From assembly GCA_047632875.1 (NCBI GenBank), contig JBLIEH010000001.1, forward strand, positions 1-61,545: a DNA stretch of 61,545 bases. The letters are read 5' to 3'. The DNA is from Psychromonas sp. (lineage in GTDB: Bacteria > Pseudomonadota > Gammaproteobacteria > Enterobacterales > Psychromonadaceae). A program made the translations under genes and the position numbers. Shown piece by piece: positions 31,466-53,983 of the stretch. Numbering within the stretch: position 1 is the first letter of the stretch; each line of letters opens with the position of its first letter. A model generated the notes under the pieces. That model was given only the letters and a program-made list of their open reading frames with translations, searched no databases and had not been told where the DNA came from.

Positions 31466-31496
31466 GAAATTGCTTTGCAAATTGCAAAGCAATTTC
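31466..31496. promoter_or_regulatory. LuxO-type enhancer 1 (perfect palindrome)
   Basis: GAAATTGCTTTGCAA-A-TTGCAAAGCAATTTC; core TTGCA-AAT-TGCAA 31475-31487. Confidence 0.75.
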
Positions 31497-31560
31497 AATC
31501 CACCGATTAAAAAACTTATAGTTAAATTTGTAAGTAACTGTATCTGTTGTGTTATTTTTA

Positions 31561-31577
31561 TTGGCACGGATCTTGAT
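31561..31577 (+). promoter_or_regulatory. sigma54 promoter of the pilus operon
   Basis: TTGGCACG-GATC-TTGAT; perfect -24 element, -12 is GA instead of GC. Confidence 0.65.
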
Positions 31578-31634
31578 AGGTAATGTATAAGTAAGATATT
31601 GGTCTTACTGTTTATATAATAAAAAGAGGTCTCT

Positions 31635-32097: not shown

Positions 32098-32853
32098 ATG
32101 AAACGTAAGTGGAGAGGAAGTACCATCGCTGGATTTGTAATTTTTATTATTTCAGGTTTGTCAGCCAGTTTATTAGGGGTGCGACAGTTTGAACGTCATA
32201 CCACCCATGAGGTTATAGCTATTAATTCTGATATTAATAGTGGTACCCGGATAAATCAGACGATGTTAAGTAAGGTGAGAGTGGATAACGCGGTACAAGG
32301 CATTAAAGACCCGGCATTTATGATAGGTAAATATCTCAGCAACGATAAGAAGCAAGGCGAAACAATACAGCGGTCCGATTTAAAAAAACCGGCTCAATCT
32401 TGGTTGGCACAGCAAATCCCCCAAGGCAAAGTGCTTTATACGCTAAAACCAAAGCCGGGTTCCATTCCGCATACTCAACTTAGAAACGGAGATTATTTTG
32501 ATGTCTTGGTTGCCAATAGTCGTGGCGTTAGAACCGTAGCCCGCAGTGTGTTGCTGGTCGGAGCAATGTCAGATAACGCTAATAAAAAAAACCAAACTAA
32601 AAACGCTTTATCGGCCTCTGTTAACCCACAAAAAAACAAACCGCAGCCTTTGTTTTTGGTGGTGGCGGTATCTCCTGAAGAAGTTTATGACCTGGCGCGT
32701 ATTGGTGCCAAAGAAGCTGTTTCTCTTGTACTGCACGGCGTTAAGAGTGAAACGATTGGTAAGCGATTATCTATGATATCGAAACAAACGCACCGTCAAG
32801 TCGAGCTTATTTCCGGACCCAATAGACGCATGGTGAAAATAGCGCTTCAGTAA
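32098..32853 (+). CDS. CpaB/RcpC-like pilus assembly protein (SAF domain)
   Basis: N-terminal TM, VIAINSDINSGTRI, LAQQIPQGK, LRNGDYFDVL, VAVSPEE. Confidence 0.7.
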   Translation: MKRKWRGSTIAGFVIFIISGLSASLLGVRQFERHTTHEVIAINSDINSGTRINQTMLSKVRVDNAVQGIKDPAFMIGKYLSNDKKQGETIQRSDLKKPAQSWLAQQIPQGKVLYTLKPKPGSIPHTQLRNGDYFDVLVANSRGVRTVARSVLLVGAMSDNANKKNQTKNALSASVNPQKNKPQPLFLVVAVSPEEVYDLARIGAKEAVSLVLHGVKSETIGKRLSMISKQTHRQVELISGPNRRMVKIALQ

Positions 32854-32929: not shown

Positions 32930-33607
32930 ATGAATAAGCTTAACTATATTACTCTGCTGTTATTGACTGGCTGCAGCACGGTTCAAACCCCGATGAAAGA
33001 ACCGTATTTTAATCAACATCATGTGCTTAACCACTCAAAATCAATAGCAACTTATTATCAATTCGCGCATGATTTTGATGTTTTGCCTGCTAAACCGCTC
33101 GATAAGTCAAGGCAAGTAGTGCTGCGTTGTATTAGGGCACATAAAAGTACTATGGGTGATGACGTAAGTACACACAAGCCATCTTACTTAGATAGTCAAA
33201 CAGACCATCATGTTCAGTTGCAGCATTATCGAATGGCCACTCCATTTCATCAAAATGATGCACAGTTAACGCAAATAATGATGTCTGAATTAAAATTTTT
33301 CTATCAAAAATTAGAAAATATAAGTCAACCTTACCATTTGTTTGTTTTAGGTCATACCAATAGTGATGGTAGCTTGGCACTTAATAATCGACTCTCAAGC
33401 CAGCGTGCAAAAAATGCGCTGCAATACCTCAATTCCCTTGGTGTTGAACATGACTTGATGACAACTATAGGGATGGCAGACAGTTTGCCGCTGGCCACTT
33501 GGGATAAAAATAAACATGCGAATAACCGTCGCCTGGAAATTTTTATATATCGTCCTGATAATACTAAGCCAACCCTGGAGAATCATTGTTATGAACGTAT
33601 ATTATAA
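32930..33607 (+). CDS. OmpA-domain lipoprotein in the pilus operon
   Basis: Lipobox LLTGC; LGHTNSDGS..LN..LS.QRA, NRRLEI. Confidence 0.8.
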   Translation: MNKLNYITLLLLTGCSTVQTPMKEPYFNQHHVLNHSKSIATYYQFAHDFDVLPAKPLDKSRQVVLRCIRAHKSTMGDDVSTHKPSYLDSQTDHHVQLQHYRMATPFHQNDAQLTQIMMSELKFFYQKLENISQPYHLFVLGHTNSDGSLALNNRLSSQRAKNALQYLNSLGVEHDLMTTIGMADSLPLATWDKNKHANNRRLEIFIYRPDNTKPTLENHCYERIL

Positions 33608-35564
33608 ATTGAACAGTCATCTATTACTTTTGTTATTCAGCTGCTTATTTGTTTCGTTACGAGCATTTGCGGGGTTAGATTATATCGAGGATGCTAATGG
33701 TAAAAAATTGGCTAACCATCGCGACTTTATTCAATGGACGCATTCAAGACTGGTTTTTAGTGAAGAAATTAAACGTGTCGCGGTAGGACAAGATAAAACC
33801 TTGGAAGTTGAGATTATTGGCACTAAAGAGCTGTTGATACTGGCGAAACAGGTTGGGAAAACGTCGATGATCGTCTGGTATGAAGGTGGACGAACCGAAA
33901 CGTTCTTATTTAGTGTCACTGAAGACTTATCAGTGTTACGCAGTGCTTTAACTGATATTCACCCCGCTATTCGACTTGAGCTGGCGCCTGATCGTCCAGC
34001 CTTAATCTTACGCGGGACCGTGCCATCGATTGATTACAAAATTGCGGCTGAAGCGGCTGCTCGACATTATTTAGGGGCGAGTCAAAAAAATAAACCGGGC
34101 AAAACCGGCAATAACTCCGCGCAAGTATTTTCCGATGCATTGGACATGATTACTGCTAATCAAAATACCTCGACAAATGATATTTTCAGGTTAAATGCCA
34201 GCCAACTGCTCGGTCAATCTCAAGCGGCTATTATCAATTTAATTAAATTAAAAATAATGCCAAGAACCTTGGAGGAGAAAGTCGAGGATGCTATTAGCAA
34301 CTACCATCAAGGCACAGTAACAGTTACCCGTATAGTTAAGGGGGATATTGCGAATAATCAAGAAGATATTCTTCTACTTGACGGTGATGTAGCAGATCAG
34401 GTGGCATTAACGCGGATCCTCAACATCGCGGCACGTCTTTTCGTCGGTAGTGATAACAGAGGGGAGATCACCATTACCGCTGTAACCGATGAAGGGGGCG
34501 GTATATTAAGTCAGCTCGGCGCCAGCAACACTGGCAGCAGTCTCTTTGGTAAATCGACGACGGGTAAAAAAGGTAATGATATACGCTCAAATATTGCGCG
34601 TTCCAAACTCTTGTCTATGGCTGACGGTCGTATTTTATCGACGATTAAAGTGAAGGACTTACCCAAAATTCGGGTAGCTGTTCAAATTCATGAAGTAAAC
34701 CGTAATAGAATGCTACGTTGGCGTCCTGATTTTAGTTTAAAAACTAATGGTTATAGCGAAGATGGGTTGTTCGGCCTAGGAGGTTTATCAGAACAGTCCG
34801 AAGGGGCGAATAGCATTGAAAATGCGCTGCAACTGTTAGGAGGCTCATTGACAAATAATTTACAGTTTACAAGCAATGCTATGGCTTTTGATTTGCTTTT
34901 CTCATTAATGGAACAAGAAGGCATTTCAAAAAGCTTGTCTAGGCCAACTATAACCGTTCTCACGGGGGAAACCGCGGTATTTAATGTCGGCGGTGAAGTG
35001 CCTATTCCGACAGCATTTGCGCCAACAGGCATCAAATCAGGGGATGAAATTGGCAGTAACACGGCAGGCGTGTTTAGTGGTACCACCTTTAAATCTTTTG
35101 GGGTCTCACTCAGTTTACGGGCAGTAGTCGATGAAGATGACCGTATTACGTTAGATATTAATCCTTCAATCTCTGCACCAGATACTTTGTTAACACAACA
35201 AATATCAGGCAGTACCGGCAGTAAGCTTAACAGCTCTGCATTTAATGTACGCAGTATCAATACAACGGCGCAATTAAAAGATGGACAACCTTTGGTGTTA
35301 GCCGGCTTAGTTTATAGTGAACATTCATCAAGTGATAACTTTACGCCAGGCCTAAATAGCGTGCCTGTACTGGGTAAGTTAGCCCAGCAATACAATGACA
35401 CTGAACAAGAGCGTGAATTGGTTATTATTGTCACTCCGACCTTAGTGAGAGAATCCCGCGGCGACGTTCATTTGTGGTCATTTCCGAGCACTTTTGAGTT
35501 GGCGGCAAGTGCACTGATGCCGGTTGCAAAACAACCATACGTATCAATAACTGCAGAGGATTAG
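33591..35564 (+). CDS. RcpA/CpaC-type secretin
   Basis: Signal peptide, N-domain RVAVGQ...GKTSMIVW, A.F.VGGEVPIP, F.SFGVSL, TTAQLKDGQ.LVLAGL, VPVLGKL, ELVIIVTP; GGAG RBS before ATG 33591. Confidence 0.88.
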   Translation: MNVYYKLNSHLLLLLFSCLFVSLRAFAGLDYIEDANGKKLANHRDFIQWTHSRLVFSEEIKRVAVGQDKTLEVEIIGTKELLILAKQVGKTSMIVWYEGGRTETFLFSVTEDLSVLRSALTDIHPAIRLELAPDRPALILRGTVPSIDYKIAAEAAARHYLGASQKNKPGKTGNNSAQVFSDALDMITANQNTSTNDIFRLNASQLLGQSQAAIINLIKLKIMPRTLEEKVEDAISNYHQGTVTVTRIVKGDIANNQEDILLLDGDVADQVALTRILNIAARLFVGSDNRGEITITAVTDEGGGILSQLGASNTGSSLFGKSTTGKKGNDIRSNIARSKLLSMADGRILSTIKVKDLPKIRVAVQIHEVNRNRMLRWRPDFSLKTNGYSEDGLFGLGGLSEQSEGANSIENALQLLGGSLTNNLQFTSNAMAFDLLFSLMEQEGISKSLSRPTITVLTGETAVFNVGGEVPIPTAFAPTGIKSGDEIGSNTAGVFSGTTFKSFGVSLSLRAVVDEDDRITLDINPSISAPDTLLTQQISGSTGSKLNSSAFNVRSINTTAQLKDGQPLVLAGLVYSEHSSSDNFTPGLNSVPVLGKLAQQYNDTEQERELVIIVTPTLVRESRGDVHLWSFPSTFELAASALMPVAKQPYVSITAED

Positions 35565-35567: not shown

Positions 35568-36293
35568 ATGAAAAATCTTATTATCACCTTGACCTGCTTC
35601 TATCTCATTGCTTGTAGTTCGATCACCAAGCGTTCATTGGTGGACAATACCGATCCTAATGAACAAGTCACTCGCATCTTCACCACTTTTCACGAACAAA
35701 CCGATAAAGGGATGACATGTCATCCAGAGTCTACGCCAGGCCAACAAAATGATTGTGAAGGTCTTCTAAAAGAAGCCATGCAATTGTATACCGCCTTTCC
35801 GAATAACGAAAAGGCACAGATGCTCAATGCTTTTTTATTCTATGAGCATGGCCGGCGTGAACAAGCGACATTTTTGTTAGATCAGCTGCTACAGCAGAAT
35901 AAACCGCGTCCTGAGGCTGCCATCATGCGCAGTAAAATGGCAATGGAAGAGGGTAACCTCAATCTAGCGCAAAGCATATTACTACAACAAATAAATCAAA
36001 ATCCTATTTATAGTGAACTGCATGAAACCCTCGCGGCGGTTTACTATTTAAAGGATGATTATGTGAAAGCATTACAAGCCTTAAGTAGAGCTGAGCAATT
36101 TGGTGCGCCTGACTGGCGAGTTAGCTTCCACCGAGGTTTAGTGTTTGAAAATCAAGGTTTGCGTGAAGCTGCTTGTTTACAGTACTTGAAAACTTCACAG
36201 ATCAAATCTGATTTTTTATTAGCGACGAGCCGTATATTTGCGTTATCAGATATTCCGGTATGTTTACAATTTGAACCTTTTATAAGGGGATAA
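35568..36293 (+). CDS. TPR lipoprotein (TadD-like pilotin)
   Basis: Lipobox LIAC, TPR-like helices (LAAVYYL..DY.KA...L; RGLVFE.QG). Confidence 0.7.
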   Translation: MKNLIITLTCFYLIACSSITKRSLVDNTDPNEQVTRIFTTFHEQTDKGMTCHPESTPGQQNDCEGLLKEAMQLYTAFPNNEKAQMLNAFLFYEHGRREQATFLLDQLLQQNKPRPEAAIMRSKMAMEEGNLNLAQSILLQQINQNPIYSELHETLAAVYYLKDDYVKALQALSRAEQFGAPDWRVSFHRGLVFENQGLREAACLQYLKTSQIKSDFLLATSRIFALSDIPVCLQFEPFIRG

Positions 36294-36296: not shown

Positions 36297-37610
36297 ATGT
36301 TTGAATCAAATGACCAGGCACAAAACTCTGCGGATATTCGCCGTATTCGCCAATTTATTCACCAACAATTAATCGGCTCCGTAGACTTAGAGCAAGATCA
36401 AAATCTCCATGAGGCAAAGGTTTTAAAAATAAAAATAGCGACGTTAATTGCGCAATTTGAAGAAAAAATGGGTATGCCTATTGGGGCCGACATCCATCTG
36501 CAGATAATGGATCAAATTACCCATGAAGTTAATGGTTATGGACCTTTAACAGGTTTAATGATGGATCCTGGCATCTCGGATATTTTAATTAACGGCGCAA
36601 AGGATATATGGATTGATCGCGCAGGTAAATTACAAAAAACGGCCATTGAATTTGATGACCAGCAACATTTGCGTCGAATGCTTGATAGGTTATTGGCAGA
36701 TCAAGGCAAACGATTGGACAGCCAATCACCAACGGTCGACGCTAAACTACCTGATGGTAGCCGCTTGCATGCTTTAATAGCGCCACTCTGTAAAAATGGG
36801 CCAGTGGTATCGATAAGGCGATTTACCCACCAACCACACTCTGCGGCTGCATTGGTAAAAAATGGAATGCTATCACAAAATATGCTTGATTTTCTGACTG
36901 TTGCAATCAAAGCAGGTTGTAATATGGTTATCGCTGGTGGTGCATCTGTAGGAAAAACTACCTTATTAAATGCGTTATCTGAATTTATTCCAAGCGCTGA
37001 GCGAGTCATAACCATCGAAGAATCAGCTGAGTTATGCCTACGCCATCCACATGTGATCTCACTAGAAGCTCGGCAAAAAAACAATCATGGTCAGGGTGGT
37101 TTCCCGTTACGTGAATTACTGCGTAATGCACTGCGTATGCGTGCAGATCGAATAATCATCGGTGAAGTCCGTGGCGAAGAGGTATTTGATATGCTGCAAG
37201 CTATGACCGTGGGACATAACGGCAGTATGACAACTGTACATGCTAATCATCCTCGTGATGTCATTGGGCGATTAGAATCTCTCGCTTTGTTAAGTCATGA
37301 GCAAATGCCCATGAGCAGCATTCATAGTCTACTGAGTGCTGCGATGAAACTCATCGTATATTTAACCCGAAGCCAGGACGGTAACCGCTACGTTACCCAT
37401 ATTTGTGAAGTGATACCAGAGCAAGGCCATTTAGCAGTGAAAGACATTTTTTCTCGGCAAGTATATGAACCATTCCCCAGTAAAAATAAGGCACAGCCGC
37501 AAGATAGGCATTATCAAGAGCATTACCGTCCGCCACAACTTATTAGTCAGTTAACAGAGAAAGGGGCTGTAATAGCTGAGCATTTTCACTCTGGATATGT
37601 CATTAAATAA
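36297..37610 (+). CDS. tadA: TadA/CpaF pilus assembly ATPase
   Basis: GYGPL..L..DP.ISDILING, VDAKLPDGSR, GGASVGKTT, TIEESAEL, LRMRADRIIIGEVRG, GH.GS.TTVHAN. Confidence 0.92.
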   Translation: MFESNDQAQNSADIRRIRQFIHQQLIGSVDLEQDQNLHEAKVLKIKIATLIAQFEEKMGMPIGADIHLQIMDQITHEVNGYGPLTGLMMDPGISDILINGAKDIWIDRAGKLQKTAIEFDDQQHLRRMLDRLLADQGKRLDSQSPTVDAKLPDGSRLHALIAPLCKNGPVVSIRRFTHQPHSAAALVKNGMLSQNMLDFLTVAIKAGCNMVIAGGASVGKTTLLNALSEFIPSAERVITIEESAELCLRHPHVISLEARQKNNHGQGGFPLRELLRNALRMRADRIIIGEVRGEEVFDMLQAMTVGHNGSMTTVHANHPRDVIGRLESLALLSHEQMPMSSIHSLLSAAMKLIVYLTRSQDGNRYVTHICEVIPEQGHLAVKDIFSRQVYEPFPSKNKAQPQDRHYQEHYRPPQLISQLTEKGAVIAEHFHSGYVIK

Positions 37611-37621: not shown

Positions 37622-38503
37622 ATGTTTGAAATGATATTTTTTATAGGATCATTAGTCGTTGTATTGGCTTCCTTCATATTCATTAACTATCAAACCAAGC
37701 ATACAATGGCGGCTAATGGCGATATAACCCAAGTTTTGTTAGCAACAGTAGATAAAAAAATAAATTTTTGGCAGCGCGCAAGGTGGTTAGTGGGAACGCA
37801 ACTTCCGCCAATATTGCTGAGCATGGTGGTTTTAACGACGGGCACTCTGCTTGGCTTGTTATTTTTAGATTATTTTCCAACTCATTACTATTTAGCGCTG
37901 ATTACGAGCTTGCTATTTATGTTGATTATAGGTTTGCTGGTGAAAGATATTTTGGCATGGCGGGCTAAAATATTTGAAAATGCACTCTATGATATTGTGC
38001 TGACAATGCACGCGGCTGCTTCGTGCGGTGCACCTGCATCGCTGGCATTAGCACAAGCGGCAGAGAATTCGCGTGGATTTATTAAAGGCGCATTAAATAA
38101 TATGCTTCAACGGCTTGAGTTAGGTGCTGATATTAAATCTTCCAGCAAAGCTTTGGCCGATCATTTTCCCTCTGAAGGCATGCGCTTGTTTCTAAATAGC
38201 ATCGAATTTTGTTGGCAGTCAGAGAGTAATTTAGAAGCCGTTTTAGCCGGGTTAGCCAGCGTATTGCGTGAAAGGTTAGCTTTTAAACGTAAAATTATAG
38301 GGCAATTATCAGGTACAGTTTACGCTGCAGTTACTGCTGCTCTTTTTCCTTATGGACTGATCCCATACTTAAATTGGCAGCAGCCTGATTGGCTTACTCC
38401 TTTGACGGAACATCCTTATGGACCGATTTTTTTAGTCAGTGCATTGACCTGTCAAGTCGTTGGTTTTATTTGGATCAGGGCTATTTTAAGGAGTACTCTA
38501 TAA
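37622..38503 (+). CDS. tadB: TadB-like platform protein (T2SSF domain)
   Basis: TM pattern, NLE.VL..LA.VLRER, follows the ATPase. Confidence 0.72.
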   Translation: MFEMIFFIGSLVVVLASFIFINYQTKHTMAANGDITQVLLATVDKKINFWQRARWLVGTQLPPILLSMVVLTTGTLLGLLFLDYFPTHYYLALITSLLFMLIIGLLVKDILAWRAKIFENALYDIVLTMHAAASCGAPASLALAQAAENSRGFIKGALNNMLQRLELGADIKSSSKALADHFPSEGMRLFLNSIEFCWQSESNLEAVLAGLASVLRERLAFKRKIIGQLSGTVYAAVTAALFPYGLIPYLNWQQPDWLTPLTEHPYGPIFLVSALTCQVVGFIWIRAILRSTL

Positions 38504-39342
38504 TGTCAGGTTTTGCGATTGACATAACCCTGCTGATCACCACTGTATTGAGCCTGATACTGGTCTATCAACTGCAAAAGATCAGCACGGCTCAGCCTAA
38601 TACAATCTTACCAACGCTACCCCAAAAATCGACTGGTCGATTTAGTACACTGTTATGGCCACAGGTTTTGATTAGGCAAGCGGGCATCAACCCCGAAGAT
38701 ATTAAACCGTTATATTTTCCAATTAAAATAATGATCACGCTAACCGTCATACTGTGTCTGTATGAGTTTCCTTCGCCATGGCAGCATGGTCTAGTCGTAA
38801 CAATTGCTGCAATTACGGGTTATTACAGTATAGATTTATGGTTACTGCAGCGTAGGCAACAGAGACGCGATCAAATCATTCACAGTTTAAGTTTTTTTAT
38901 TGATTTGATCATAGCGCAACTTCAAGCTGGTGCTTCATTACAACAAGCCATTAAAACCTCGGGGAGTATTGGCTTTGTTGCCACTCACCCACTCGCCTTA
39001 GAATCAAAGCTTATGTATGCCGAGTTAGAACTTGGACAAGACTGGGCAACTTCGTTTTCAGCTCTTTGGCAACGTACAGGCGTTACTGAACTAAAACAGC
39101 TTTCGATCATTATTAATACCGGATTACGGCTTGGGGTACCCATTTCATCAACCTTAGCGCATCAGTCGAATATTTTAAGAGATAAGCAGCAACAATTGAT
39201 GCTCAAAAAAGTCAACAAGAAAAACATTGAAATGTTATTACCAATGATCCTGGTTTGTCTGCCAATGTTTTTTGTACTGGTGCTATTTCCGGCCATTGTA
39301 CAAGTGAGTGAAGTATTTAAATTACTTAAACTTTTATTTTAA
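38503..39342 (+). CDS. tadC: TadC-like platform protein (T2SSF domain)
   Basis: DL....LQAG.SL.QA, RTGV.EL, G.PI..TL..QS..LR, MLLPMILVCLP..F.LVLFPA; TAATG coupling to tadB. Confidence 0.78.
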   Translation: MSGFAIDITLLITTVLSLILVYQLQKISTAQPNTILPTLPQKSTGRFSTLLWPQVLIRQAGINPEDIKPLYFPIKIMITLTVILCLYEFPSPWQHGLVVTIAAITGYYSIDLWLLQRRQQRRDQIIHSLSFFIDLIIAQLQAGASLQQAIKTSGSIGFVATHPLALESKLMYAELELGQDWATSFSALWQRTGVTELKQLSIIINTGLRLGVPISSTLAHQSNILRDKQQQLMLKKVNKKNIEMLLPMILVCLPMFFVLVLFPAIVQVSEVFKLLKLLF

Positions 39343-40941: not shown

Positions 40942-40968
40942 TTTTGCTTTGCAAAATGCAATGCAAAA
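40942..40968. promoter_or_regulatory. LuxO-type enhancer 2
   Basis: TTTTGCTTTGCA-AAA-TGCAATGCAAAA; core 40949-40961. Confidence 0.75.
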
Positions 40969-41015: not shown

Positions 41016-41049
41016 AATCAAAGTGTTACTATTTGGTATATATCTTGCT
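41016..41049 (+). promoter_or_regulatory. IHF site and sigma54 promoter of the binding protein/kinase operon
   Basis: AATCAA-AGTG-TTA (41016-41028) matches WATCAA-N4-TTR; TTGGTATATATCTTGCT with GG 41035-36 and GC 41047-48. Confidence 0.7.
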
Positions 41050-45863: not shown

Positions 45864-47342
45864 ATGTCTCAAACTACTTTATTTCAAAAATCTCAAATAT
45901 TACTGGTAGAAGACAGCCCATCATTAAGTGCCCTGTATAATAGATATCTTTCACAAGCAGGTTATAGCGTTACTTCGGTTACTACTGGCGGCGAGGCTTT
46001 ACTTGAATTAGAGCAGAAAGTACCTGACTTAGTCCTACTGGACTTACGTTTACCCGATATGTTTGGCATGGACTTGCTAAAAACAATATTTGAGCGTGGC
46101 CTTGGTTGTGCTGTGGTGATTATAACGGCCCATGGATCTATTGATTTAGCCATTGAAAGTATGCAATGTGGCGCCTCAGACTTTTTAACTAAGCCCTTTG
46201 ATGCTGGTCGGCTAAAAGTAACAGTCAATAATGCGCTAGAAAAACATCGTCTCAATGATATTTTAACGCATTACCAAAACACCTTTGAACGCGATCATTT
46301 TCATCGTTTTACCGGTGCCTCATTAGCAATGCAAACTGTTTTTCGTATTATCGAAAGTGCAGGCCCCAGTAGAGCGACGGTGTTTATTAGTGGCGAAAGT
46401 GGTACCGGAAAAGAATTGTGCGCAGAGGCAATACATCAAGAAAGCCCACGTAAAAGTAACTCCTTTATCGCCATCAACTGTGCCGCAATTCCCCGAGATT
46501 TGATGGAGAGTGAAATTTTCGGTCATGTTAAAGGGGCATTTACTGGCGCAGCTAATAGACGTGATGGTGCTGCTAGTCGGGCTGATGGCGGGACCTTATT
46601 TCTTGATGAAATTGGCGAGATGCACTTAGAACTGCAAAGCAAACTGTTACGCTTTATTCAAACAGGCAGCTTCCTCAGGGTTGGCGGACAACAGGAAGAG
46701 CAAGTTGATATACGTATTGTCTGCGCTACTAATCGTGATCCGCTAGCTGAAGTCAAAGCAGGGCGTTTTCGTGAAGATCTTTATTATCGATTGAATGTTA
46801 TCCCCATTCAGTTACCGCCATTACGTGATCGAGGAGACGATATTCGCTTGATTGGTGAAAAACTATTACAGCGCATTGCAAAAGAAGAGAACAAAGGGTT
46901 TTGTCATTTTTCTAGCGCAGTGACTGATCTTTTTTTAACATACCATTGGCCAGGTAATGTTCGTGAGCTCGAAAATGTAATAAGAAACATCGTGGTTCTT
47001 AATACTGGCGAGCAAGTAAGTTACGATATGTTACCTCCTTCTTTTTTCCCTTCAAGGAATGATGCAAGTAGTGTTCAAAACATCTCTTCAAACCATTCTA
47101 TTGCACCAGCACCTGCAATTTTATCTCATACATCTACCCAAATATCAGCACATACTCCACAAGAAGTTGGTGACATAAGGTCGTTATGGCTGGAAGAAAA
47201 AGACATCATCGAACGTGCTATTGCTTTGTGTCATGGCAATATTCCTAAAGCGGCAGCGCTGCTTGATATTAGTGCCTCAACCATTTACCGTAAAAAAGTC
47301 ACATGGGATGATTTAGCTAACTGTTCTACAGCAGTTCAATGA
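45864..47342 (+). CDS. luxO: LuxO-like sigma54-dependent response regulator
   Basis: REC ([23 protein letters not shown]), [61 protein letters not shown], very similar to Vibrio LuxO/SypG. Orthology not proven. Confidence 0.82.
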
Positions 47343-47650: not shown

Positions 47651-47698
47651 TTTGCATTATGCGAAAAATACTGCAAAAGAATATTCTCATTATGCGAA
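47651..47698. promoter_or_regulatory. Tandem LuxO/SypG-type enhancers
   Basis: TTTGCA-TTA-TGCGAA (47651-47665) and TTCTCA-TTA-TGCGAA (47684-47698), 33 bp apart. Confidence 0.6.
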
Positions 47699-47748
47699 TA
47701 ACCCACCAACAAAAACCACAACCTATTGTTTATATTGATATTTAAATA

Positions 47749-47765
47749 TTGGTGTGATTGTTGCT
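47749..47765 (+). promoter_or_regulatory. Candidate sigma54 promoter
   Basis: TTGGTGTGATTGTTGCT, GG 47751-52, GC 47763-64. Confidence 0.6.
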
Positions 47766-47946
47766 ATATCCTTTATGCAAGACGTCACTATTTCAGTCAG
47801 AGTATCCAGGAGAAAAGAGATGAGCAATCTATCGGCAGGCAGGTGAGCTAATTATGAAGAAAAAAATCACCTATTTCCAATAAAAAATATTAGCAAAATT
47901 TAGTCAACAAACTGACTTAAATTAAACACTATACCAACCCCCCAAG

Positions 47947-47986
47947 GATAGCTTACCAACCTGGTTAGTCCGGTTGGTAAGCTATC
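47947..47986. other. Perfect 15-bp stem-loop
   Basis: GATAGCTTACCAACC-N10-GGTTGGTAAGCTATC, no U tail. Confidence 0.7.
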
Positions 47987-48013
47987 TGGCGAGTAACTAT
48001 TGAGGTACTAATA

Positions 48014-48310
48014 ATGCAGTTGATAGCACGACTAAGAAAAATCTTTATATCCTTTAATCGCTTTCTGGATAAGCTGGAAGTATATGATCAACGTCGTAAG
48101 CAGTTGCAGCATGAAGAACGCCGCGCATCTGTGCAGGACAATCCTGATCAAGCTTTTGCTGATCTCTTTGCTAAGCCTGCTAATAACAAGCTGCACAAGC
48201 CGATCCATCCCGATGCAGTCAACAGCTCCGTGCGTGACGGCTTACCCACAACTATCGTGTATAAGAAGGGGACAAGACCAGATAACAACGGCCACCATAG
48301 AGTGTTTTAA
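48014..48310 (+). CDS. Small hypothetical protein
   Basis: GAGGT RBS, 98-aa ORF, no recognised motif. Confidence 0.55.
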   Translation: MQLIARLRKIFISFNRFLDKLEVYDQRRKQLQHEERRASVQDNPDQAFADLFAKPANNKLHKPIHPDAVNSSVRDGLPTTIVYKKGTRPDNNGHHRVF

Positions 48311-48438
48311 GTTGGTAACAAATTTCCCTGTAAGTCGTTATTGCCATTTTTTTCTGATACCGCAGAGCGGGTAATAAAATATATTTGTTCTGATTGGTCT
48401 AAGGCAATACCTGCTTTTCACTTAACAGTCAGGTTAAA

Positions 48439-48456
48439 TGCTTTGCAAAATGCAAA
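48439..48456. promoter_or_regulatory. LuxO-type enhancer upstream of the phosphodiesterase
   Basis: TGCTTTGCA-AAA-TGCAAA; core 48443-48455. Confidence 0.72.
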
Positions 48457-48570
48457 TGAATATCAAAGTTACCATTTAAAAAAAATACATTCTGCATGGC
48501 CGATCTGTAATTTATTTCGTAATTTGCTGTTTTTTAAGGTTTGTTAAGAAAATGAAATGTAAATAAAAAA

Positions 48571-48587
48571 CTGGCACATTATTTGCT
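48571..48587 (+). promoter_or_regulatory. sigma54 promoter of the REC-EAL gene
   Basis: CTGGCACATTATTTGCT, near-consensus GG-N10-GC. Confidence 0.8.
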
Positions 48588-48625
48588 TTTATTAAGGCAC
48601 ATCTTGAAGCAACAAGGAATATAAA

Positions 48626-50713
48626 ATGAAGCCGGCTAATACTTGTATCGTTCAAGCAAGTAAAAAATTTACTGTCTTAGTAGTAGATGATGACAAACTG
48701 ATGCGTTTATATGCCCGTACAGTTTTAGAAAAAAACGGATTAGTCGTTTTTGAAGCCAAAAATGGCCATGACGCGTTAAGGTCAATTCGAGCAAACAGCT
48801 TTGATGCTATTTTGATGGATATTCGTATGCCGGGTATAGATGGTTTTACCGCATGTCGTGAAATTAGACAAATGCTGCCGGATGAGTTCTTACCTATTAT
48901 TGTTATTACCGGCCAAAATAACAATGAAGCCATTGAAACTGCTTTTGAGCACGGAGCCACAGATTTTGTTACTAAGCCGATAAACTGGTTGAAATTAAAA
49001 AATCGTCTGCTTTATTTAATGAATGCCAGATTTACCGCCAACGATTTAATATCAACGAAAAGGCATCGGAATGCCTTAATAGATACTATCCCTGATAATT
49101 TACTGCGCTTAAATAGTGATGGACTCGTGCTGGATATGAAATCACCCCGTACGGGTTTTGACTTAGGGCTGCCTGAGACGTTAATTGGACAGAGTCTTTA
49201 TGATTTTTTGCCCTATGACGCCGTACAACAGTTTAAAAAAGGCATTGTAATGGTTCTGTCAGGCCAAGGCACCCAAGATTTTGAATTTTCTATTGAACAG
49301 TCCGGACAATGCTTTTATTTAGAAGTACGGCTAGTGCTGGCGGGCAACCATGAACTTGTTGCTGTATTACGTGACTTCAGTGAGCGCCAACAAGCCCAGG
49401 CAAAAATAACGCAATTGGCTTATTACAATAAAATCACAGGCTTGCCAAATATCGAACTGATTCGTAAAAATATCACCGAAGAAATAGCGGCGAGTAAAAG
49501 AATGGTGTCAGTTACCCGATTAAGTCTGCTTGGACTCGATTATGTAAAAAGTGTTTTAGGCCGAGAGCGTTCCAATCAGTTAATGGGCATGCTGGCCTCG
49601 CGTTTATCAGACACTGCCAATAAAAGTGCCCGCACCAATATTCAACGCCTGCCGGCAGTCGGTCAAGTGGGTGAGTCAGACTTTACTATTATCAGCAGTG
49701 ATTTTAACACCAGAGCCGACCTAGTCGACTTTGCTACGACTTTGTCTGATGCTATGGAAGGAAAATTTGTGCTTGAAGGTAACGAATTCAAGCTAGTATC
49801 ACGGATGGGAATAGCCATTTATCCAGATAAGAATATCAGTGAAAACAATCTGCTCGAGAAGTCAGAGATGGCACTTGAACAGGCAATTAAAAGTAAGCAC
49901 AGTGGCCCACTAATTTATTGTGATGAAATAGGGCAAAAAAGTGTGAAAAAGTCACGTATGGCGAAAGAATTAAAAATTGCGATCGATAATGGTGATCTCT
50001 TTCTAAATTATCAACCTAAAGTAGATGCAACCACTCTGGAATTAACGGGCGTTGAAGCATTAGTACGCTGGAACATGCCTGACACAGGTATCATTTCCCC
50101 CGCTGAATTTATTCCCCTGGCAGAAGAAAGTGGGTTGATTTTATCAATAGGTGAATTTGTGCTTTATGAGGCTTGCCGCCAGAGTCGTTTATGGTCTGAT
50201 TCACAATTAAAGGTGGTTCCTATCGCCGTAAATTTCTCCGGTCATCAATTTAACCAACAAAATTTTGTGGCAAACATACTAAAAACCTTTGACCGATACT
50301 CACTGGATAATGGACTCATTGAAGTAGAATTGACTGAATCTGTGGCAATGGGAAATAGTATCCGCGTCCGCTCAATCTTAGCTAACTTAAGCGAGCTTGG
50401 TATCAATACAGCAATAGATGACTTTGGAACGGGTTATTCGTCGCTGAGTAGCCTCAGAGAGTTTAATTTTCATACCCTAAAAATTGACCGCAGCTTTGTT
50501 TCTGAACTCAACATTGTGCCAAGTGCCAGTGCTATTGTACGAGGTATTATTACTATGGGTCATGCCTTAAATATGAAAGTGGTTGCGGAAGGGGTTGAAG
50601 AAGAGCACCAGCTAGATTTTTTACGTAAAAATAATTGTGACACTATCCAAGGTTATTTAACCGGTCGGCCAGTATCAAGTAATGAAATTCAAGAAATGCT
50701 CATGACAAAATAA
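48626..50713 (+). CDS. REC-PAS-degenerate GGDEF-EAL c-di-GMP phosphodiesterase
   Basis: VVDDD/LMDIRMP receiver; VGESDF in place of GGDEF; VEALVRW, ELTES, DDFGTGYSSL, KIDRSF, VAEGVE intact. Confidence 0.9.
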   Translation: MKPANTCIVQASKKFTVLVVDDDKLMRLYARTVLEKNGLVVFEAKNGHDALRSIRANSFDAILMDIRMPGIDGFTACREIRQMLPDEFLPIIVITGQNNNEAIETAFEHGATDFVTKPINWLKLKNRLLYLMNARFTANDLISTKRHRNALIDTIPDNLLRLNSDGLVLDMKSPRTGFDLGLPETLIGQSLYDFLPYDAVQQFKKGIVMVLSGQGTQDFEFSIEQSGQCFYLEVRLVLAGNHELVAVLRDFSERQQAQAKITQLAYYNKITGLPNIELIRKNITEEIAASKRMVSVTRLSLLGLDYVKSVLGRERSNQLMGMLASRLSDTANKSARTNIQRLPAVGQVGESDFTIISSDFNTRADLVDFATTLSDAMEGKFVLEGNEFKLVSRMGIAIYPDKNISENNLLEKSEMALEQAIKSKHSGPLIYCDEIGQKSVKKSRMAKELKIAIDNGDLFLNYQPKVDATTLELTGVEALVRWNMPDTGIISPAEFIPLAEESGLILSIGEFVLYEACRQSRLWSDSQLKVVPIAVNFSGHQFNQQNFVANILKTFDRYSLDNGLIEVELTESVAMGNSIRVRSILANLSELGINTAIDDFGTGYSSLSSLREFNFHTLKIDRSFVSELNIVPSASAIVRGIITMGHALNMKVVAEGVEEEHQLDFLRKNNCDTIQGYLTGRPVSSNEIQEMLMTK

Positions 50714-50947
50714 CGTTTTATTCAGGTGTGTTTATAAATACACACTTGGATAAGATCCTTTGCTAACTCAACGCCAACTCTAGTATTATTCATTTTAAAG
50801 GCTCTGAATATTTTTTGTGTGGTGACAATTACCTATTTCTCAAGTAACTGATAATAATATGGTGAGTAGTTGCTTGATAAAAGTTAGGTTAGACCTGAAT
50901 CTGAGTAGTCGATTTTATCTAAATATTAGCCACTGAAGGCGCAAAAT

Positions 50948-53900
50948 ATGCTTACAACCCCACTACCTGAAAATGATAATGAGCGTGTTAACGCGCTACT
51001 CAAATTAGGTTTATTAGATAGCCCCGCAGAGGAGCGCTTTGACCGATTAACGCGAATGGCACAACAATCGCTGAAAGTGCCGATTGCCTTAATCAGCCTA
51101 GTAGATCTAAACAGGCAATGGTTCAAATCAAGAGTAGGCATTAATGCGACACAAACCGATCGATGCATTTCATTCTGCGGACATGCCATAGTTCAGAAAG
51201 ATATATTTGTAGTGGAGGACGCTTTAGCAGACCCACGTTTTTTTGACAATCCTCTGGTCACTGGCGACTTAGGCCTTAGATTCTATGCTGGTCGCCCTCT
51301 ATTCACCAGCAAAGGTGATTGTATCGGGACCCTTTGTGTCATTGATACCAAATCTCGTCAATTTAATGAGAAAGACCGACAACTTCTGGATGCAATTGCC
51401 AAACTAGTAGAGCTGGAAATAAACGTTCATAGTGCTAAAAAAAATCAGGAAAAAAAAGTACCAAAAAACGAGATCAACTCCAATTGTAGTAAAGTGTTTG
51501 CCTCACTCATTGGCCGGCGACCTATTGCAGCATCTATCTCACTATTATTTGCCTTAGGTATTATATTATTCGCTTTTTCATGGTATCAGAAAAACCTACA
51601 GACTATCGAAACAGAAAAAGATAATAGATTAATTTCATCATTAGCTAACATTAGGGGGAAATTAGAAACAGAAATAAACTCGCGTTTACATTTAACTCAA
51701 GGTTTAGCGGGTCTGGTTAGAGCTAACAAATTAATTAATGAAGAACAGTTTCAACAGTTTGCATCAGATTTAAGTAAAAACCTCACTGCAATTCGAAGCC
51801 TTCAGCTCGCGCCCCAAGGTATTGTGCAGTTTGTCTGGCCTTTATCTTCTAATGCTTCCGCCATAGGCCACAACTTATTAGCAGATCCCAAAAGGGTATT
51901 TGCGGCCCAACAAGCAATAAATACCCGCAACCTTTGGATAGCGGGACCACTGAGCTTAACTCAAGGCGGGGAGGCTTTAATTGCTCGTTTACCTATATTT
52001 GTTGGCTCTACCCCAGGTAGCCCTGAAAAATTTTGGGGTTTTGCTTCTATTTTAATTGACATGCCCGCTTTTATTAAAGAAGTTGGGTTAGATAGCCCGC
52101 AATTACGAGAAACTATTGCAATTAGAGGTAAAGACGCTAAAGGTAAATTCGGTGATATTTTTTATGGTGATCCTAATACTATTCAAAATAGTCTCGCACA
52201 AGCTGAAGTGTCATTACCTGGCGGTAGCTGGGAAATAAGTATAAAAAACCATAGTGCAATACAAAATTGGCCTGGACAGTCGCTTTTCTGGGTTTTATCC
52301 GTAGTGATGACCTTGGGCTTACCATGGCTTATTTATCTGTTGCTGCGTTTCCCTCAAAAGTGTCAGAGGGCGGTTTTGATCGCCACCGAGGCCTTAAAAC
52401 AAAGCGAAATTAGGTTTCGTGATGCTATTGAAGCACTACCTGACGGTTTTGTTATTTATGATGAAAATGACAAATTATACACTTGTAATGAGCGTTACCG
52501 GCAAGTGTATCAAATCAGTAGTGACGTTATTGAGGAAGGCCGCAGTTATGATGAAATTATGCGTTATGGTTTTATTAAAGGACAATACCATCACGATAGC
52601 GATGATAAACAAAGTATTGATGACTTTGTCCGCCAGCGGGCTGAATTTCATTTGCTGGGCACTCGCATTGGAGAAGAGCATTTAGCCTCAGGACAATGGA
52701 TGCGCATGGTTGAACGTCCTATCCGTGGCGGAGGCGTGGTTGGACTTAGGGTTGATATCACTGAGCTGAAGCACAAGGAACAAGAGCTTGCTCAGGCAAG
52801 AGATCTTGCTGAAGCGGCTAATATCGCCAAAAGTAGTTTTTTGGCAACAGTGAGTCATGAAGTTCGCACTCCAATGAATGTGATCTTAGGGCTATTAGAC
52901 ATTTTGAAGTCGTCAAAAGATATTCCTACAGAACAACTTAAATTCATTAATACTGCCCATTTGTCGGCGCAACAACTCTTACATATTATCAATGAAATTC
53001 TCGATATCAGTAAAATTGAGGCCGGCAAGTTAGATCTGGAAATTGAGCCATTCAGTCTGAAAAATACTATTGAAAATGTCATTAATCTGTCTTCAAATAG
53101 GGCCTCTGACAAAAATATAAGATTACTCACTCAAATCGAAAATATTGAAAATCTCCACATTAAGGGCGATGAAGGTCATCTACATCAGATCTTATTAAAT
53201 ATTGTGACTAATGCCATTAAGTTTACCAATCAAGGGCAAGTACTCCTTGAAGTCAGCCAAGTTGGTTCGACGTCAGAGCAAATATTTATCCGTTTTGACG
53301 TCACCGATACCGGTATTGGTTTTACGGATGAGCAAGCAAAGAAATTATTCTCCCCTTTTGTGCAACTTGATAATAGCGCTTCAAGATGTCAAGAAGGGAC
53401 TGGACTTGGGCTGTTCATTTGTAAAAAAATGCTTGAATTGATGAATAGTAAAATTTCAGCTAAGGGAGTTCCCAATAAAGGGGCTATTTTTAGCTTTACA
53501 ATTCCATTTGCTAAAGTGCCTGAGTCGATGATTGCAGATATCAAGAAAGCCAATGACATTCTATCTTCTCAATCAGGAACAGAGCCCTTAAGTATATTAC
53601 TTGCAGAAGACTCTCCATCAAATCAAATGGTATTGCAGGCGATGTTAGCCAATACCCGTTATAATATTGACATTGTCGCCAACGGCAAAGCCGCGGTGCA
53701 GGCGTTAACACAGCAACGCTACGACTTAGTATTAATGGATATATTTATGCCAGAAATGGATGGTATGCAAGCAACTAAGCTTATTCGTGAAAATTCTGCA
53801 ATTGCTTATGTACCAATCATAGCGCTGACCGCCAATGCCATGAAAGGCGATAGGGAAAAATTTATTGATGCAGGTATGGACGATTACATTCCCAAACCTA

Positions 53901-53983
53901 TCAATAAGGTGGCACTTTTACAAAAACTGGCCATGTGGGGAAATAAAATATCGCAAAATAGCCCCTCTCGAGGGCGTTTATAG
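50948..53983 (+). CDS. Hybrid sensor kinase GAF-TM-CHASE-TM-PAS-HisKA-HATPase-REC
   Basis: GAF (E.ER..AL....LLDSPAEERFD, SFCGHAI, RFYAG), CHASE-like AIGHNL...AGPL.L.QGG, VSHEVRTPMN, GTGLGL, LMDIFMP; no Hpt. Confidence 0.9.
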   Translation: MLTTPLPENDNERVNALLKLGLLDSPAEERFDRLTRMAQQSLKVPIALISLVDLNRQWFKSRVGINATQTDRCISFCGHAIVQKDIFVVEDALADPRFFDNPLVTGDLGLRFYAGRPLFTSKGDCIGTLCVIDTKSRQFNEKDRQLLDAIAKLVELEINVHSAKKNQEKKVPKNEINSNCSKVFASLIGRRPIAASISLLFALGIILFAFSWYQKNLQTIETEKDNRLISSLANIRGKLETEINSRLHLTQGLAGLVRANKLINEEQFQQFASDLSKNLTAIRSLQLAPQGIVQFVWPLSSNASAIGHNLLADPKRVFAAQQAINTRNLWIAGPLSLTQGGEALIARLPIFVGSTPGSPEKFWGFASILIDMPAFIKEVGLDSPQLRETIAIRGKDAKGKFGDIFYGDPNTIQNSLAQAEVSLPGGSWEISIKNHSAIQNWPGQSLFWVLSVVMTLGLPWLIYLLLRFPQKCQRAVLIATEALKQSEIRFRDAIEALPDGFVIYDENDKLYTCNERYRQVYQISSDVIEEGRSYDEIMRYGFIKGQYHHDSDDKQSIDDFVRQRAEFHLLGTRIGEEHLASGQWMRMVERPIRGGGVVGLRVDITELKHKEQELAQARDLAEAANIAKSSFLATVSHEVRTPMNVILGLLDILKSSKDIPTEQLKFINTAHLSAQQLLHIINEILDISKIEAGKLDLEIEPFSLKNTIENVINLSSNRASDKNIRLLTQIENIENLHIKGDEGHLHQILLNIVTNAIKFTNQGQVLLEVSQVGSTSEQIFIRFDVTDTGIGFTDEQAKKLFSPFVQLDNSASRCQEGTGLGLFICKKMLELMNSKISAKGVPNKGAIFSFTIPFAKVPESMIADIKKANDILSSQSGTEPLSILLAEDSPSNQMVLQAMLANTRYNIDIVANGKAAVQALTQQRYDLVLMDIFMPEMDGMQATKLIRENSAIAYVPIIALTANAMKGDREKFIDAGMDDYIPKPINKVALLQKLAMWGNKISQNSPSRGRL

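What the first reader, a model, noticed from the sequence alone, without database searches (positions are those of the whole stretch)
31466..53983. Self-contained LuxO-like sigma54 circuit wired to a Tad-like pilus and a c-di-GMP phosphodiesterase
Seen: the motif TGCTTTGCAAAWTGCAA occurs three times (cores 31475, 40949, 48443), plus a tandem variant at 47651/47684. Each lies 66-130 bp upstream of a -24/-12 element (GG at 31563, 41035, 47751, 48573). The same region encodes an activator with a LuxO-like HTH, a kinase with a LuxU-like Hpt, and a second hybrid kinase. Established: Vibrio LuxO binds TTGCA-W3-TGCAA and activates qrr sRNAs via sigma54; its paralogue SypG uses TTCTCA-N3-TGM. Inference: here the LuxO chassis directly activates a pilus operon, its own sensor operon (positive feedback), an unknown RNA/small-ORF unit and a PDE. 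This would be a surface-attachment switch unlike Vibrio quorum sensing, and I do not recognise it as a described system.
Basis: partly seen in the sequence, partly recalled or inferred. Interest (0 to 1): 0.88.

Follow-up and report, generated by a model that had tools for sequence, protein, structure and literature searches.

The report
LuxO-family switch for unusual adhesion pilus
A scattered set of mostly marine bacteria carry a gene block in which a cousin of Vibrio's quorum-sensing regulator LuxO sits with an uncatalogued Tad-like pilus, and LuxO's DNA binding motif recurs in front of the pilus, sensor and c-di-GMP genes, so this regulator likely switches on surface attachment directly instead of acting through small RNAs.

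Summary
Four box-plus-sigma54 promoters sit where stated, and they are the four best-scoring such pairs in the 1.94 Mb assembly. The same pilus genes occur in 57 other genomes (20 named genera). There the box follows operon starts through rearrangements: 24 of 38 pilin genes and 19 of 35 secretin genes, against 0 of 215 operon-internal genes. 47 of 49 tested genomes carry a LuxO-family activator. The activator is neither LuxO nor SypG (AU p<0.001), lacks LuxO's autoinhibitory glycine, and no Qrr was found. The closest model is Vibrio's SypF-SypG biofilm switch: same periplasmic-binder/Hpt-kinase/activator cassette, and same-genus syp-like polysaccharide loci use the same box. Here the output is a reduced Tad-like pilus whose two pilins have Glu at +6 and match no Pfam family, plus a predicted phosphodiesterase. 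One correction: the 'small ORF' behind the third promoter is a phage lysis-cassette relic, and that promoter's real product is unresolved. Binding, transcription and adhesion are inferred, not shown. Verdict: an apparently undescribed variant of a known circuit type.

The parts
31471..31491 (.). Activator box 1 (core TTGCA-AAT-TGCAA 31475-31487, extended palindrome)
31562..31577 (+). sigma54 -24/-12 element of the pilus operon, GA variant at -12; predicted start near 31588
   Evidence: the GA variant recurs at pilin promoters of L011, L012, L014, L016, L067
31635..32012 (+). Predicted major pilin, 125 aa, leader G|F-I-L-T-T-E (Glu at +6), no Pfam family
   Evidence: (one long helix 12-70)
32098..32853 (+). 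CpaB/RcpC-like (SAF + RcpC)
32930..33607 (+). OmpA-domain lipoprotein
33591..35564 (+). Secretin with T2SS-T3SS_pil_N domain (RcpA/CpaC-like; longest ORF from 33516)
35568..36293 (+). TPR lipoprotein (TadD/pilotin-like, inferred)
36297..37610 (+). TadA/CpaF-like ATPase, Walker A and B intact
37622..38503 (+). TadB-like platform protein (one T2SSF domain)
38503..39342 (+). TadC-like platform protein (one T2SSF domain)
39389..40528 (+). Second pilin-like protein, 379 aa, same G|F-x4-E leader, cysteine-rich head with no fold match; predicted tip or minor pilin
40949..40961 (.). Activator box 2
41016..41028 (.). Exact match to the IHF consensus (recalled as WATCAA-N4-TTR) between box 2 and its promoter
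41034..41049 (+). sigma54 element of the sensor operon; predicted start near 41060
41090..41950 (+). PhnD-like periplasmic binding protein (related to PtxB, AioX, ArrX)
41950..45471 (+). Hybrid kinase 1: 2 TM-HAMP-PAS-PAS-HisKA(H521)-HATPase-REC(D963)-Hpt(H1114)
45864..47342 (+). LuxO/SypG-family sigma54 activator: REC D60, GAFTGA intact, LuxO-like HTH, Arg148 in place of the LuxO linker Gly
47652..47697 (.). Tandem boxes 3a (47652-47664) and 3b (47685-47697)
47750..47765 (+). Third sigma54 element; predicted start near 47776; product unresolved
47776..47990 (+). Candidate short transcript: two ORFs of 8-9 codons and a 15-bp perfect hairpin (47947-47986); no Rfam match, no homolog found
48014..48374 (+). 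Phage lysis-cassette relic: 98-aa ORF with a nested +1-frame lipoprotein reading that diverges at a repeat insertion; not a conserved part of the module
48443..48455 (.). Activator box 4
48572..48587 (+). sigma54 element of the phosphodiesterase gene; predicted start near 48598
48626..50713 (+). REC-PAS-GGDEF(degenerate, GESDF)-EAL protein; EAL and DDFGTGYSS motifs intact, predicted c-di-GMP phosphodiesterase
50948..53983 (+). Hybrid kinase 2: GAF-CHASE-PAS-HisKA-HATPase-REC, no Hpt; no box of its own here

Best explanation
This block encodes a LuxO/SypG-family sigma54 activator, two hybrid kinases, a reduced Tad-like pilus and an EAL protein, with four box-plus-sigma54 promoters, and it likely works as a Syp-type attachment switch in which the phosphorylated activator binds the boxes and directly turns on the pilus, its own sensor operon and a predicted c-di-GMP phosphodiesterase. 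Steps: (1) A periplasmic PhnD-like protein would pass a signal, perhaps an oxyanion, to kinase 1 (inferred from strict gene linkage and likeness to AioX/ArrX). Kinase 2 has no Hpt and would feed the Hpt of kinase 1, as HahK and RscS feed SypF (inferred by analogy). (2) Hpt H1114 would phosphorylate activator D60 and perhaps the REC of the EAL protein (inferred). (3) The activator would bind TYGCA-W3-TGCRA 50-130 bp upstream, loop to sigma54 polymerase with IHF help and open the promoters (sites shown by sequence and conservation; binding inferred). (4) More sensor/Hpt would give positive feedback (box before the sensor operon shown; whether the activator gene shares that transcript here is uncertain, since a 392-bp gap with insertion relics separates it). 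(5) Pilins would be cut by the housekeeping PilD-type peptidase and assembled into adhesive fibres, while the phosphodiesterase would lower c-di-GMP and so limit or time commitment to biofilm (inferred).
For: Box enrichment in 57 related loci: 79 intergenic sites against 0.83 expected. 75 of 103 boxes have a sigma54 score of at least 9 of 12 on one side, against 3.9 in shuffled flanks, 8 on the other side and 34 of 193 box-free upstream regions. An independent set of 31 metagenome loci gives 39 of 45. Box-plus-promoter pairs precede pilin (24 of 38), secretin (19 of 35), ompA (7 of 9), EAL-only (9 of 16), REC-Hpt (4 of 4) and phnD (3 of 4) genes but 0 of 215 pil2/tadA/tadB/tadC/TPR genes. Offsets are phased at about 10.75 bp (R 0.50, n 91) and exact IHF sites are enriched, 18 of 104 against 1.1. 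A family activator is in 47 of 49 tested pilus genomes against 15 of 399 in a class-wide draw; the two without it have neither box nor strong sigma54 site before the pilin. In four module genomes the local activator is the only close family member, and all 3 exact boxes of the complete Pseudomonas genome lie in the locus. The recognition helix matches LuxO's, whose published site is TTGCAWWWTGCAA (PMC10162802). Other boxed targets in relatives are adhesion genes: syp-like polysaccharide operons, RTX/Ig adhesins with type I export, SCPU-domain pilins.
Against: No binding, transcript or phenotype data exist; rpoN is missing from this 56%-complete assembly. Related genomes are not independent, so the p-values overstate. 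Phasing was weak in the replication set (R 0.24-0.32, p 0.04-0.17, n 32). The activator background is much higher within the window's own order (76 of 200), so 47 of 49 is less extreme than the class figure suggests. 12 of 57 loci have no strict box (many are short contigs), and 7 of 37 pilin upstream regions lack one. Activator and TadA distances correlate only weakly (Mantel r 0.18; r 0.39 with pil2), and pilus-linked activators are not shown to be one clade. Switching on a phosphodiesterase runs against the usual high-c-di-GMP adhesion state. The adhesive role of the fibre is inferred only from Tad precedent and co-regulated genes.
Confidence: 0.68

Rival explanations
1. The regulation is as described, but the fibre is not mainly adhesive: it is a short secretion pseudopilus or a contact/uptake machine, with the cysteine-rich second pilin as its working tip.
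For: The locus lacks TadV, TadE/F/G and TadZ; its pilins are not Flp family and have Glu at +6; the second pilin's head has no fold match. Tad-like machines also serve contact killing in Myxococcus (PMC12075869, abstract start in listing).
Against: The major pilin gene has its own strong promoter and is often duplicated, as expected of a long fibre; no conserved substrate, toxin or DNA-uptake gene clusters with the locus; co-regulated genes are adhesins and polysaccharide operons.
Confidence: 0.15
2. It is a quorum-sensing-like circuit: the key output is a small RNA from the 47750 promoter, as with LuxO and Qrr, and the other promoters are secondary.
For: A tandem box, as at Vibrio qrr1, precedes a roughly 200-nt stretch without a real gene that folds better than shuffles (z -3.4); the HTH is closer to LuxO than to SypG.
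Against: No Rfam match; no Qrr in 8 module genomes while 2 Vibrionaceae controls gave 4 each; no homolog of the stretch in 41 same-genus genomes or in the related loci; in close relatives the box after the activator gene serves the EAL or kinase 2 gene; the fold is dominated by one hairpin.
Confidence: 0.07
3. The module is real in relatives but is decaying in this genome; the third promoter is an orphan left by insertions.
For: Insertion relics flank the activator gene and a phage relic follows the third promoter.
Against: All 14 module genes are full-length open frames with intact catalytic motifs; contigs of roughly 90% identity in two other runs cover all 30 bins of 45000-51500, including the third promoter. 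Orphan status of the third promoter alone is compatible with the best explanation.
Confidence: 0.07
4. The boxes are read by another, unlinked regulator, or are repressor sites.
For: The core TTGCA-N3-TGCAA occurs a few times per genome by chance; no binding data.
Against: Phased spacing ahead of sigma54 elements, loss of box and promoter in the two genomes without the activator, and identity with the published LuxO site.
Confidence: 0.03

Closest known systems
SypF-SypG (Vibrio fischeri syp; RbdG of V. vulnificus, ScvE of V. parahaemolyticus)
   Same: Hybrid kinase with fused Hpt next to a LuxO-family sigma54 activator; extra hybrid kinases feed the Hpt (PMC12369376, passages); several sigma54 promoters in one attachment locus, one of which covers the kinase and activator genes (L098, L099). 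A Vibrionaceae syp locus (L099) has the same PhnD-like/HAMP-kinase/Hpt cassette. Same-genus syp-like loci use the window's box type.
   Different: Output is a Tad-like pilus and an EAL protein, with no polysaccharide genes in this block; the activator is outside the SypG clade (AU p 0.0003); its HTH reads [15 protein letters not shown] against SypG's NVLNAA..LSPSTVYRK, and 4 of 5 boxes are TTGCA-type, not TTCTCA-type.
LuxU-LuxO-Qrr quorum-sensing relay of Vibrionaceae
   Same: Same protein family (about 52% identity), near-identical recognition helix and the same 13-bp site (PMC10162802, passages).
   Different: Below the NCBIfam LuxO cut-off (626 of 800 bits), outside the LuxO clade (AU p 0.0002), Arg at the autoinhibitory Gly141/145 (PMC4878744, passages), no adjacent free luxU, no Qrr found; targets are protein-coding.
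DVU2114 of Desulfovibrio vulgaris (and PilR of type IVa pili)
   Same: A sigma54 response regulator that binds upstream of pilin genes of a cpa/tad-like cluster (PMC3333781, passages).
   Different: Different phylum; not described there as LuxO-family or as using an Hpt relay, feedback or a phosphodiesterase. I did not compare the proteins or motifs.
Tad/Flp (type IVc) pilus
   Same: RcpC/CpaB, RcpA-like secretin, TPR lipoprotein, TadA-like ATPase, split TadB/TadC platforms (Table 1 of PMC10191384, passage).
   Different: No Flp-family pilin, TadE/F, TadG, TadZ or TadV in the cluster; the pilin is 125 aa with G|F-x4-E6 and belongs to an unnamed family that includes planctomycete proteins mislabelled as aminotransferases.
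AioX-AioS-AioR / ArrX-ArrS arsenic sensing
   Same: A PhnD/PtxB-fold periplasmic protein encoded with a kinase and a sigma54 activator; ArrX and AioX are PDB hits at E 2e-12 and 1.5e-8. Their function is recalled.
   Different: Identity is low, no arsenic genes are nearby, and the ligand here is unknown.

Membership tests
LuxO (orthologue) | Score above NCBIfam NF041946 cut-off of 800 bits | tested here: not met
   626 bits; 12 Vibrionaceae proteins passed
LuxO (orthologue) | Falls in the LuxO clade | tested here: not met
   AU p 0.000175 on 42 of 84 rows, outgroups left out
LuxO (orthologue) | R-C linker glycine (G141/G145) | tested here: not met
   Arg148 here; Gly in 12 of 12 LuxO, 6 of 24 pilus-linked activators
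LuxO (orthologue) | Activates Qrr small RNAs | tested here: not met
   0 of 8 module genomes, 4 each in 2 controls; own assembly is 56% complete and only 150 candidates were scored in some genomes
SypG (orthologue) | Falls in the SypG clade | tested here: not met
   AU p 0.0003; SypG rows were labelled by syp gene order, checked by Pfam for L099
SypG (orthologue) | Lies in a sypA-R polysaccharide locus | tested here: not met
   No glycosyltransferase or export genes in the block
LuxO/SypG family of sigma54 activators (broad) | REC-AAA(GAFTGA)-HTH with S[PA]ST[IVL]YRK helix, 45-60% identity | tested here: met
LuxO/SypG family of sigma54 activators (broad) | TTGCA/TTCTCA-N3-TGC sites upstream of -24/-12 promoters | tested here: met
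   (sequence only)
LuxO/SypG family of sigma54 activators (broad) | Phosphorylated through an Hpt domain and binds the sites | not testable with these tools
   H1114 and D60 are present; needs biochemistry
Tad/type IVc pilus | RcpC, RcpA secretin, TadA, TadB, TadC, TadD core | tested here: met
   (several matches are weak)
Tad/type IVc pilus | Flp-family major pilin with Glu5 | tested here: not met
   No PF04964 match at the locus; G-x-x4-E pattern in 141 of 150 relatives, E5 pattern in 2. The cleavage site itself is inferred
Tad/type IVc pilus | TadV peptidase and TadE/F/G, TadZ | tested here: not met
   None in the cluster; G235 and G236 have no TadE and one PilD-sized A24 peptidase genome-wide; TadG and TadZ were not searched genome-wide
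Tad/type IVc pilus | Makes adhesive surface fibres | not testable with these tools
   needs microscopy and mutants
EAL c-di-GMP phosphodiesterase | EAL, loop-6 DDFGTGYSS and EGVE motifs; inactive GGDEF | tested here: met
   (motifs only; activity untested)

The most novel reading that the evidence does not exclude
The TTGCA-W3-TGCAA box is the ancestral site of a broad LuxO/SypG family whose original job is to switch on attachment structures, and this module is a third, mobile branch that couples it to a new type IV filament subtype built from Glu6 pilins of a planctomycete-linked family with no dedicated peptidase. Vibrio quorum sensing would then be a late re-use of an attachment switch that gained the linker glycine lock and small-RNA targets.
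Probability: 0.4. Interest if true: 0.8.

Novelty: new variant of a known kind. Interest (0 to 1): 0.62.

Why it matters
It gives a concrete, testable regulon for LuxO-like proteins outside Vibrio, which are common in marine Gammaproteobacteria and are easily mistaken for quorum-sensing LuxO. It suggests that the LuxO box is family-wide and tied to attachment outputs (pili, polysaccharide, RTX adhesins), which bears on where Vibrio quorum sensing came from. It also exposes a large unnamed pilin family (2,199 clusters at 50% identity) with Glu at +6, which would test the Glu5 rule of filament assembly, in culturable non-pathogenic hosts such as Marinobacter, Shewanella and Pseudoalteromonas.

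Tried and rejected
Rfam at gathering score on the window and at E<=5 on 47300-48700: nothing credible. The 98-aa ORF had no relative in metagenome contigs and only a weak PHROG match; its relatives are in prophages and three Vibrio phage records, so it was rejected as a module gene. Fold searches of the second pilin gave no match: Foldseek none at E<=0.001, VIA best Z 4.9 on helices only; its head was not folded separately. The pilin model is low-confidence (pLDDT 60) and was not searched. Complex prediction of the PhnD-like protein with the kinase 1 periplasmic domain gave no answer (0.30 against a mark of 0.32). Sequencing runs: no RNA holder listed. No plasmid carried the second pilin. Genus-wide counts of the bare 13-bp core do not exceed the reversed-pattern control in most genomes, so the core alone is not diagnostic; clustering and promoter pairing are. 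sigma70 and terminator scans were at chance level. BrfA/Fap of P. fluorescens was considered and set aside as a different system (PMC9207406, passages). Ray et al. 2013 (SypG enhancer) was not held; its consensus is taken as quoted in PMC10162802. A single clade for all pilus-linked activators is neither shown nor rejected (AU p 0.147). Ten literature searches found no description of this module; subscription journals and supplements were not seen, and the supplementary tables of PMC8941931 could bear on the syp-like loci.
Full report
Observation. The window is contig C1 of a 1.94 Mb, 56%-complete assembly, probably Psychromonas (inferred: same-genus activators group tightly with a named Psychromonas protein). 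The 17-mer TGCTTTGCAAAWTGCAA occurs 3 times in the assembly, all here, with about 0.002 expected. The tandem variant and the four GG-N10-GC/GA elements are at the stated places. Weight matrices built only from other genomes (87 boxes, 82 promoters) rank the four pairs first to fourth among 63 candidates in the assembly. A two-mismatch search is not above chance.

Anatomy. Pfam and NCBIfam give, all on the + strand: a 125-aa pilin-like gene, cpaB, ompA-lipoprotein, secretin, TPR protein, tadA, tadB, tadC and a 379-aa pilin-like gene; a PhnD-like binder and a hybrid kinase ending in an Hpt; a REC-AAA-HTH activator whose best NCBIfam model is LuxO (626 bits, cut-off 800); a REC-PAS-GGDEF-EAL protein with intact EAL motifs and a dead GGDEF; and a GAF-CHASE-PAS hybrid kinase without Hpt. 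Gaps inside the pilus run are 85 bp or less, so one transcript is likely.

Conservation. A profile of the 379-aa protein found 57 loci among 185,579 species genomes, all Gammaproteobacteria, in 20 named genera and 7 named orders. The system is rare: the pilin profile hit 0 of 399 genomes drawn evenly across the class. The loci keep the same pilus genes in several orders, often with an activator, kinases, Hpt and EAL genes. Marinobacter, Allohahella and Pseudomonas carry most or all of the window's parts in one block. The window's activator and second pilin are closer to those of Pseudomonas, Marinobacter and Oceanospirillaceae than to the Psychromonas locus, which suggests the block moved horizontally.

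The boxes travel with promoters. The pattern T[TC]GCA-N3-TGC[AG]A has 79 intergenic sites in 100.8 kb (0.83 expected) and 24 sites inside my ORF calls in 846 kb (8.7 expected; many lie in over-extended 5' ends). 75 of 103 boxes have a sigma54 score of at least 9 of 12 on one side; shuffled flanks give 3.9, the other side 8, and box-free upstream regions 34 of 193. Box-plus-promoter pairs lie before 24 of 38 pilin, 19 of 35 secretin, 7 of 9 ompA, 5 of 41 cpaB, 9 of 16 EAL-only, 2 of 3 REC-PAS-GGDEF-EAL, 4 of 4 REC-Hpt and 3 of 4 phnD genes, 1 of 22 activator genes, and 0 of 215 pil2, tadA, tadB, tadC and TPR genes; genes within 400 bp of a locus end were left out. Offsets cluster with a period near 10.75 bp (R 0.50, n 91 after removing duplicates), and exact IHF consensus sites lie between box and promoter in 18 of 104 cases against 1.1 in shuffles (consensus strings recalled). 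The window's offsets, 52, 72, 74, 85 and 116, fit that ladder. In 31 further metagenome loci, 39 of 45 boxes have a strong sigma54 site, but phasing is weak (p 0.04-0.17, n 32). Kin are not independent, so these p-values overstate.

Which protein reads the box. A family activator lies in the fetched locus in 23 of 57 cases, just outside it in 2, and elsewhere in the genome in 22 of 24 more: 47 of 49 tested, 8 untested. The class background is 15 of 399, but it is 76 of 200 within the window's order. The two genomes without an activator (G253, G254; metagenome-assembled, completeness not given) have no box and no sigma54 score of 9 before the pilin, whereas 30 of 37 pilin upstream regions have a box and 34 of 37 a strong promoter. 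In four module genomes the local activator is the only match above 570 bits and rpoN is present (not assembled in the window's genome). Genome-wide, exact W3 boxes are concentrated at the module: 3 of 3 in Pseudomonas G233, 1 of 1 in G234, 3 of 5 in G235, 6 of 9 in G236, 3 of 5 in G237.

What the activator is. In trees of 84 and 42 proteins (LG+G4) LuxO and SypG are each fully supported clades. The window's protein sits in a 98/91 group with pilus-linked activators of Marinobacter, Pseudomonas, Motiliproteus and Oceanobacter plus one activator without a pilus nearby (L104). Forcing it with LuxO or SypG is rejected (AU p 0.0002, 0.0003). One clade for all pilus-linked activators is not rejected (p 0.147) but not shown; the deep branches are weak and differ between the two trees. 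Its recognition helix is LuxO-like, which fits the published LuxO site TTGCAWWWTGCAA; SypG uses TTCTCANNNTGMDWN and can act through the same sites at qrr1 (PMC10162802, 11 passages). The glycine that lets LuxO's linker block its own ATP site, said to be conserved in all LuxO proteins (PMC4878744, 12 passages), is Arg148 here and Gly in only 6 of 24 pilus-linked activators. No Qrr was found in 8 module genomes; two Vibrionaceae controls gave 4 each.

Closest system. The layout matches Syp better than Lux. SypF integrates several kinases through its Hpt and activates SypG (PMC12369376, 12 passages). A Vibrionaceae syp locus has the same PhnD-like, HAMP-kinase-Hpt, activator cassette, and the binder and kinase N-terminus co-occur in 19 distinct loci, with one binder-only and four kinase-only exceptions. 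syp-like loci are known from 28 genera (PMC8941931, part 2 of 5 and passages; the text has no mention of LuxO, pilus or tad). In four same-genus genomes such polysaccharide loci carry TTGCA-type boxes with phased sigma54 sites. Other boxed targets in pilus genomes are wzx and sugar-transferase genes, RTX/Ig adhesins with export proteins, SCPU-domain pilins and H-NOX operons. sigma54 control of a Tad-like cluster has a precedent in DVU2114 (PMC3333781, 5 passages).

The pilus. The core is Tad-like, but TadV, TadE/F, TadG and TadZ are absent from the cluster, and two module genomes have no TadE and only one PilD-sized peptidase genome-wide. Both pilins start G|F-x4-E, which puts Glu at +6 if cleavage follows the glycine; the pattern is in 141 of the best 150 relatives of the major pilin and 117 of 120 of the second. 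Type IV pilins normally use Glu5 (PMC10191384, 12 passages). The family has 2,199 clusters at 50% identity and no Pfam model. The ESM Atlas links it to Planctomycetota proteins mislabelled as aminotransferases, with class III signal peptide and Flp clusters as nearest named leads below 0.8. The second pilin folds confidently (pLDDT 80) but matches no solved fold.

The third promoter. The 98-aa ORF at 48014 is 54% identical to a gene that follows endolysin-like and holin-like genes in a prophage of G011, and has relatives before the terminase genes of Vibrio phages. A nested +1-frame lipoprotein reading is shared and breaks off at a repeat insertion; the pair looks like Rz/Rz1 spanins (recalled). 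The 47776-47990 stretch has a 15-bp hairpin but no Rfam match or homolog. Contigs of roughly 90% identity from two other runs cover the promoter and the ORF, so the arrangement is older than this strain. Its product stays unexplained.

Mechanism and verdict. Most likely the two kinases feed the Hpt of kinase 1, which phosphorylates the activator; the activator then opens sigma54 promoters for the pilus, the sensor operon (positive feedback) and the phosphodiesterase. Shown: sites, genes, motifs, conservation and phylogenetic exclusion from LuxO and SypG. Inferred: signal, phosphoflow, binding, fibre formation and adhesion. Ten full-text searches found no account of this module; subscription journals were not searched. 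It is a new variant of a known kind of circuit with an unusual pilus. Interest 0.62.

Noticed in passing
window 47386-47550 and 45823-45849: A roughly 165-bp dispersed intergenic repeat (MITE/REP-like) with many copies in this assembly and across the genus; a short inverted end of it lies just before the activator gene, so the gene is bracketed by element ends.
   Followed up: partly
window 48293-48380: A second small dispersed repeat, found in several same-genus genomes, inserted at the end of the phage relic.
   Followed up: partly
window 45600-45740: Stop-interrupted reading resembling a decayed IS5-type transposase fragment (resemblance recalled) in the gap between kinase 1 and the activator; an AT-rich palindrome at 45475-45511 may end the sensor transcript.
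   Followed up: no
window 40529-41089 intergenic region: Two abutting 8-bp tandem arrays upstream of box 2; length variation there could tune or vary expression.
   Followed up: no
window 25808-30839: A proteobacterial dedicated sortase system lies directly upstream of the pilus operon: PdsS kinase, PdsR regulator, OmpA-like PdsO, a short sortase-target-like fragment and a class GN sortase. It is not linked to the pilus in related loci.
   Followed up: partly
G000 C119:6440-6546: A canonical Flp-like pilin start (Glu5) cut off by the contig end, hinting at a second, ordinary flp/tad locus missing from the assembly.
   Followed up: partly
L150-L156 (G205, G222, G016, G019): Same-genus syp-like polysaccharide loci each carry several LuxO-type boxes with phased sigma54 promoters, including before a DUF4842/GEVED protein gene; in G205 and G222 no family activator was found at the search threshold or in the fetched stretch.
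   Followed up: partly
L157:8370-19108 (G235): A stand-alone Hpt gene, a box with a sigma54 site and a 2,291-aa RTX/Ig adhesin with export genes, about 670 kb from the pilus module: a likely remote member of the regulon.
   Followed up: partly
L011, L012, L014, L016, L067 pilin promoters: The non-consensus GA at -12 of the window's pilin promoter is kept in these relatives, so it may be a tuned feature.
   Followed up: no
window 15741-20183: A NorR-like sigma54 activator divergent from an hcp/hcr-like pair, unrelated to the finding (labels recalled from the translations).
   Followed up: no
G000 C253:2320 and 2461: Two TTGCA-N3-TGCAA cores 141 bp apart without a sigma54 element; probably chance or another regulator's sites.
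   Followed up: partly
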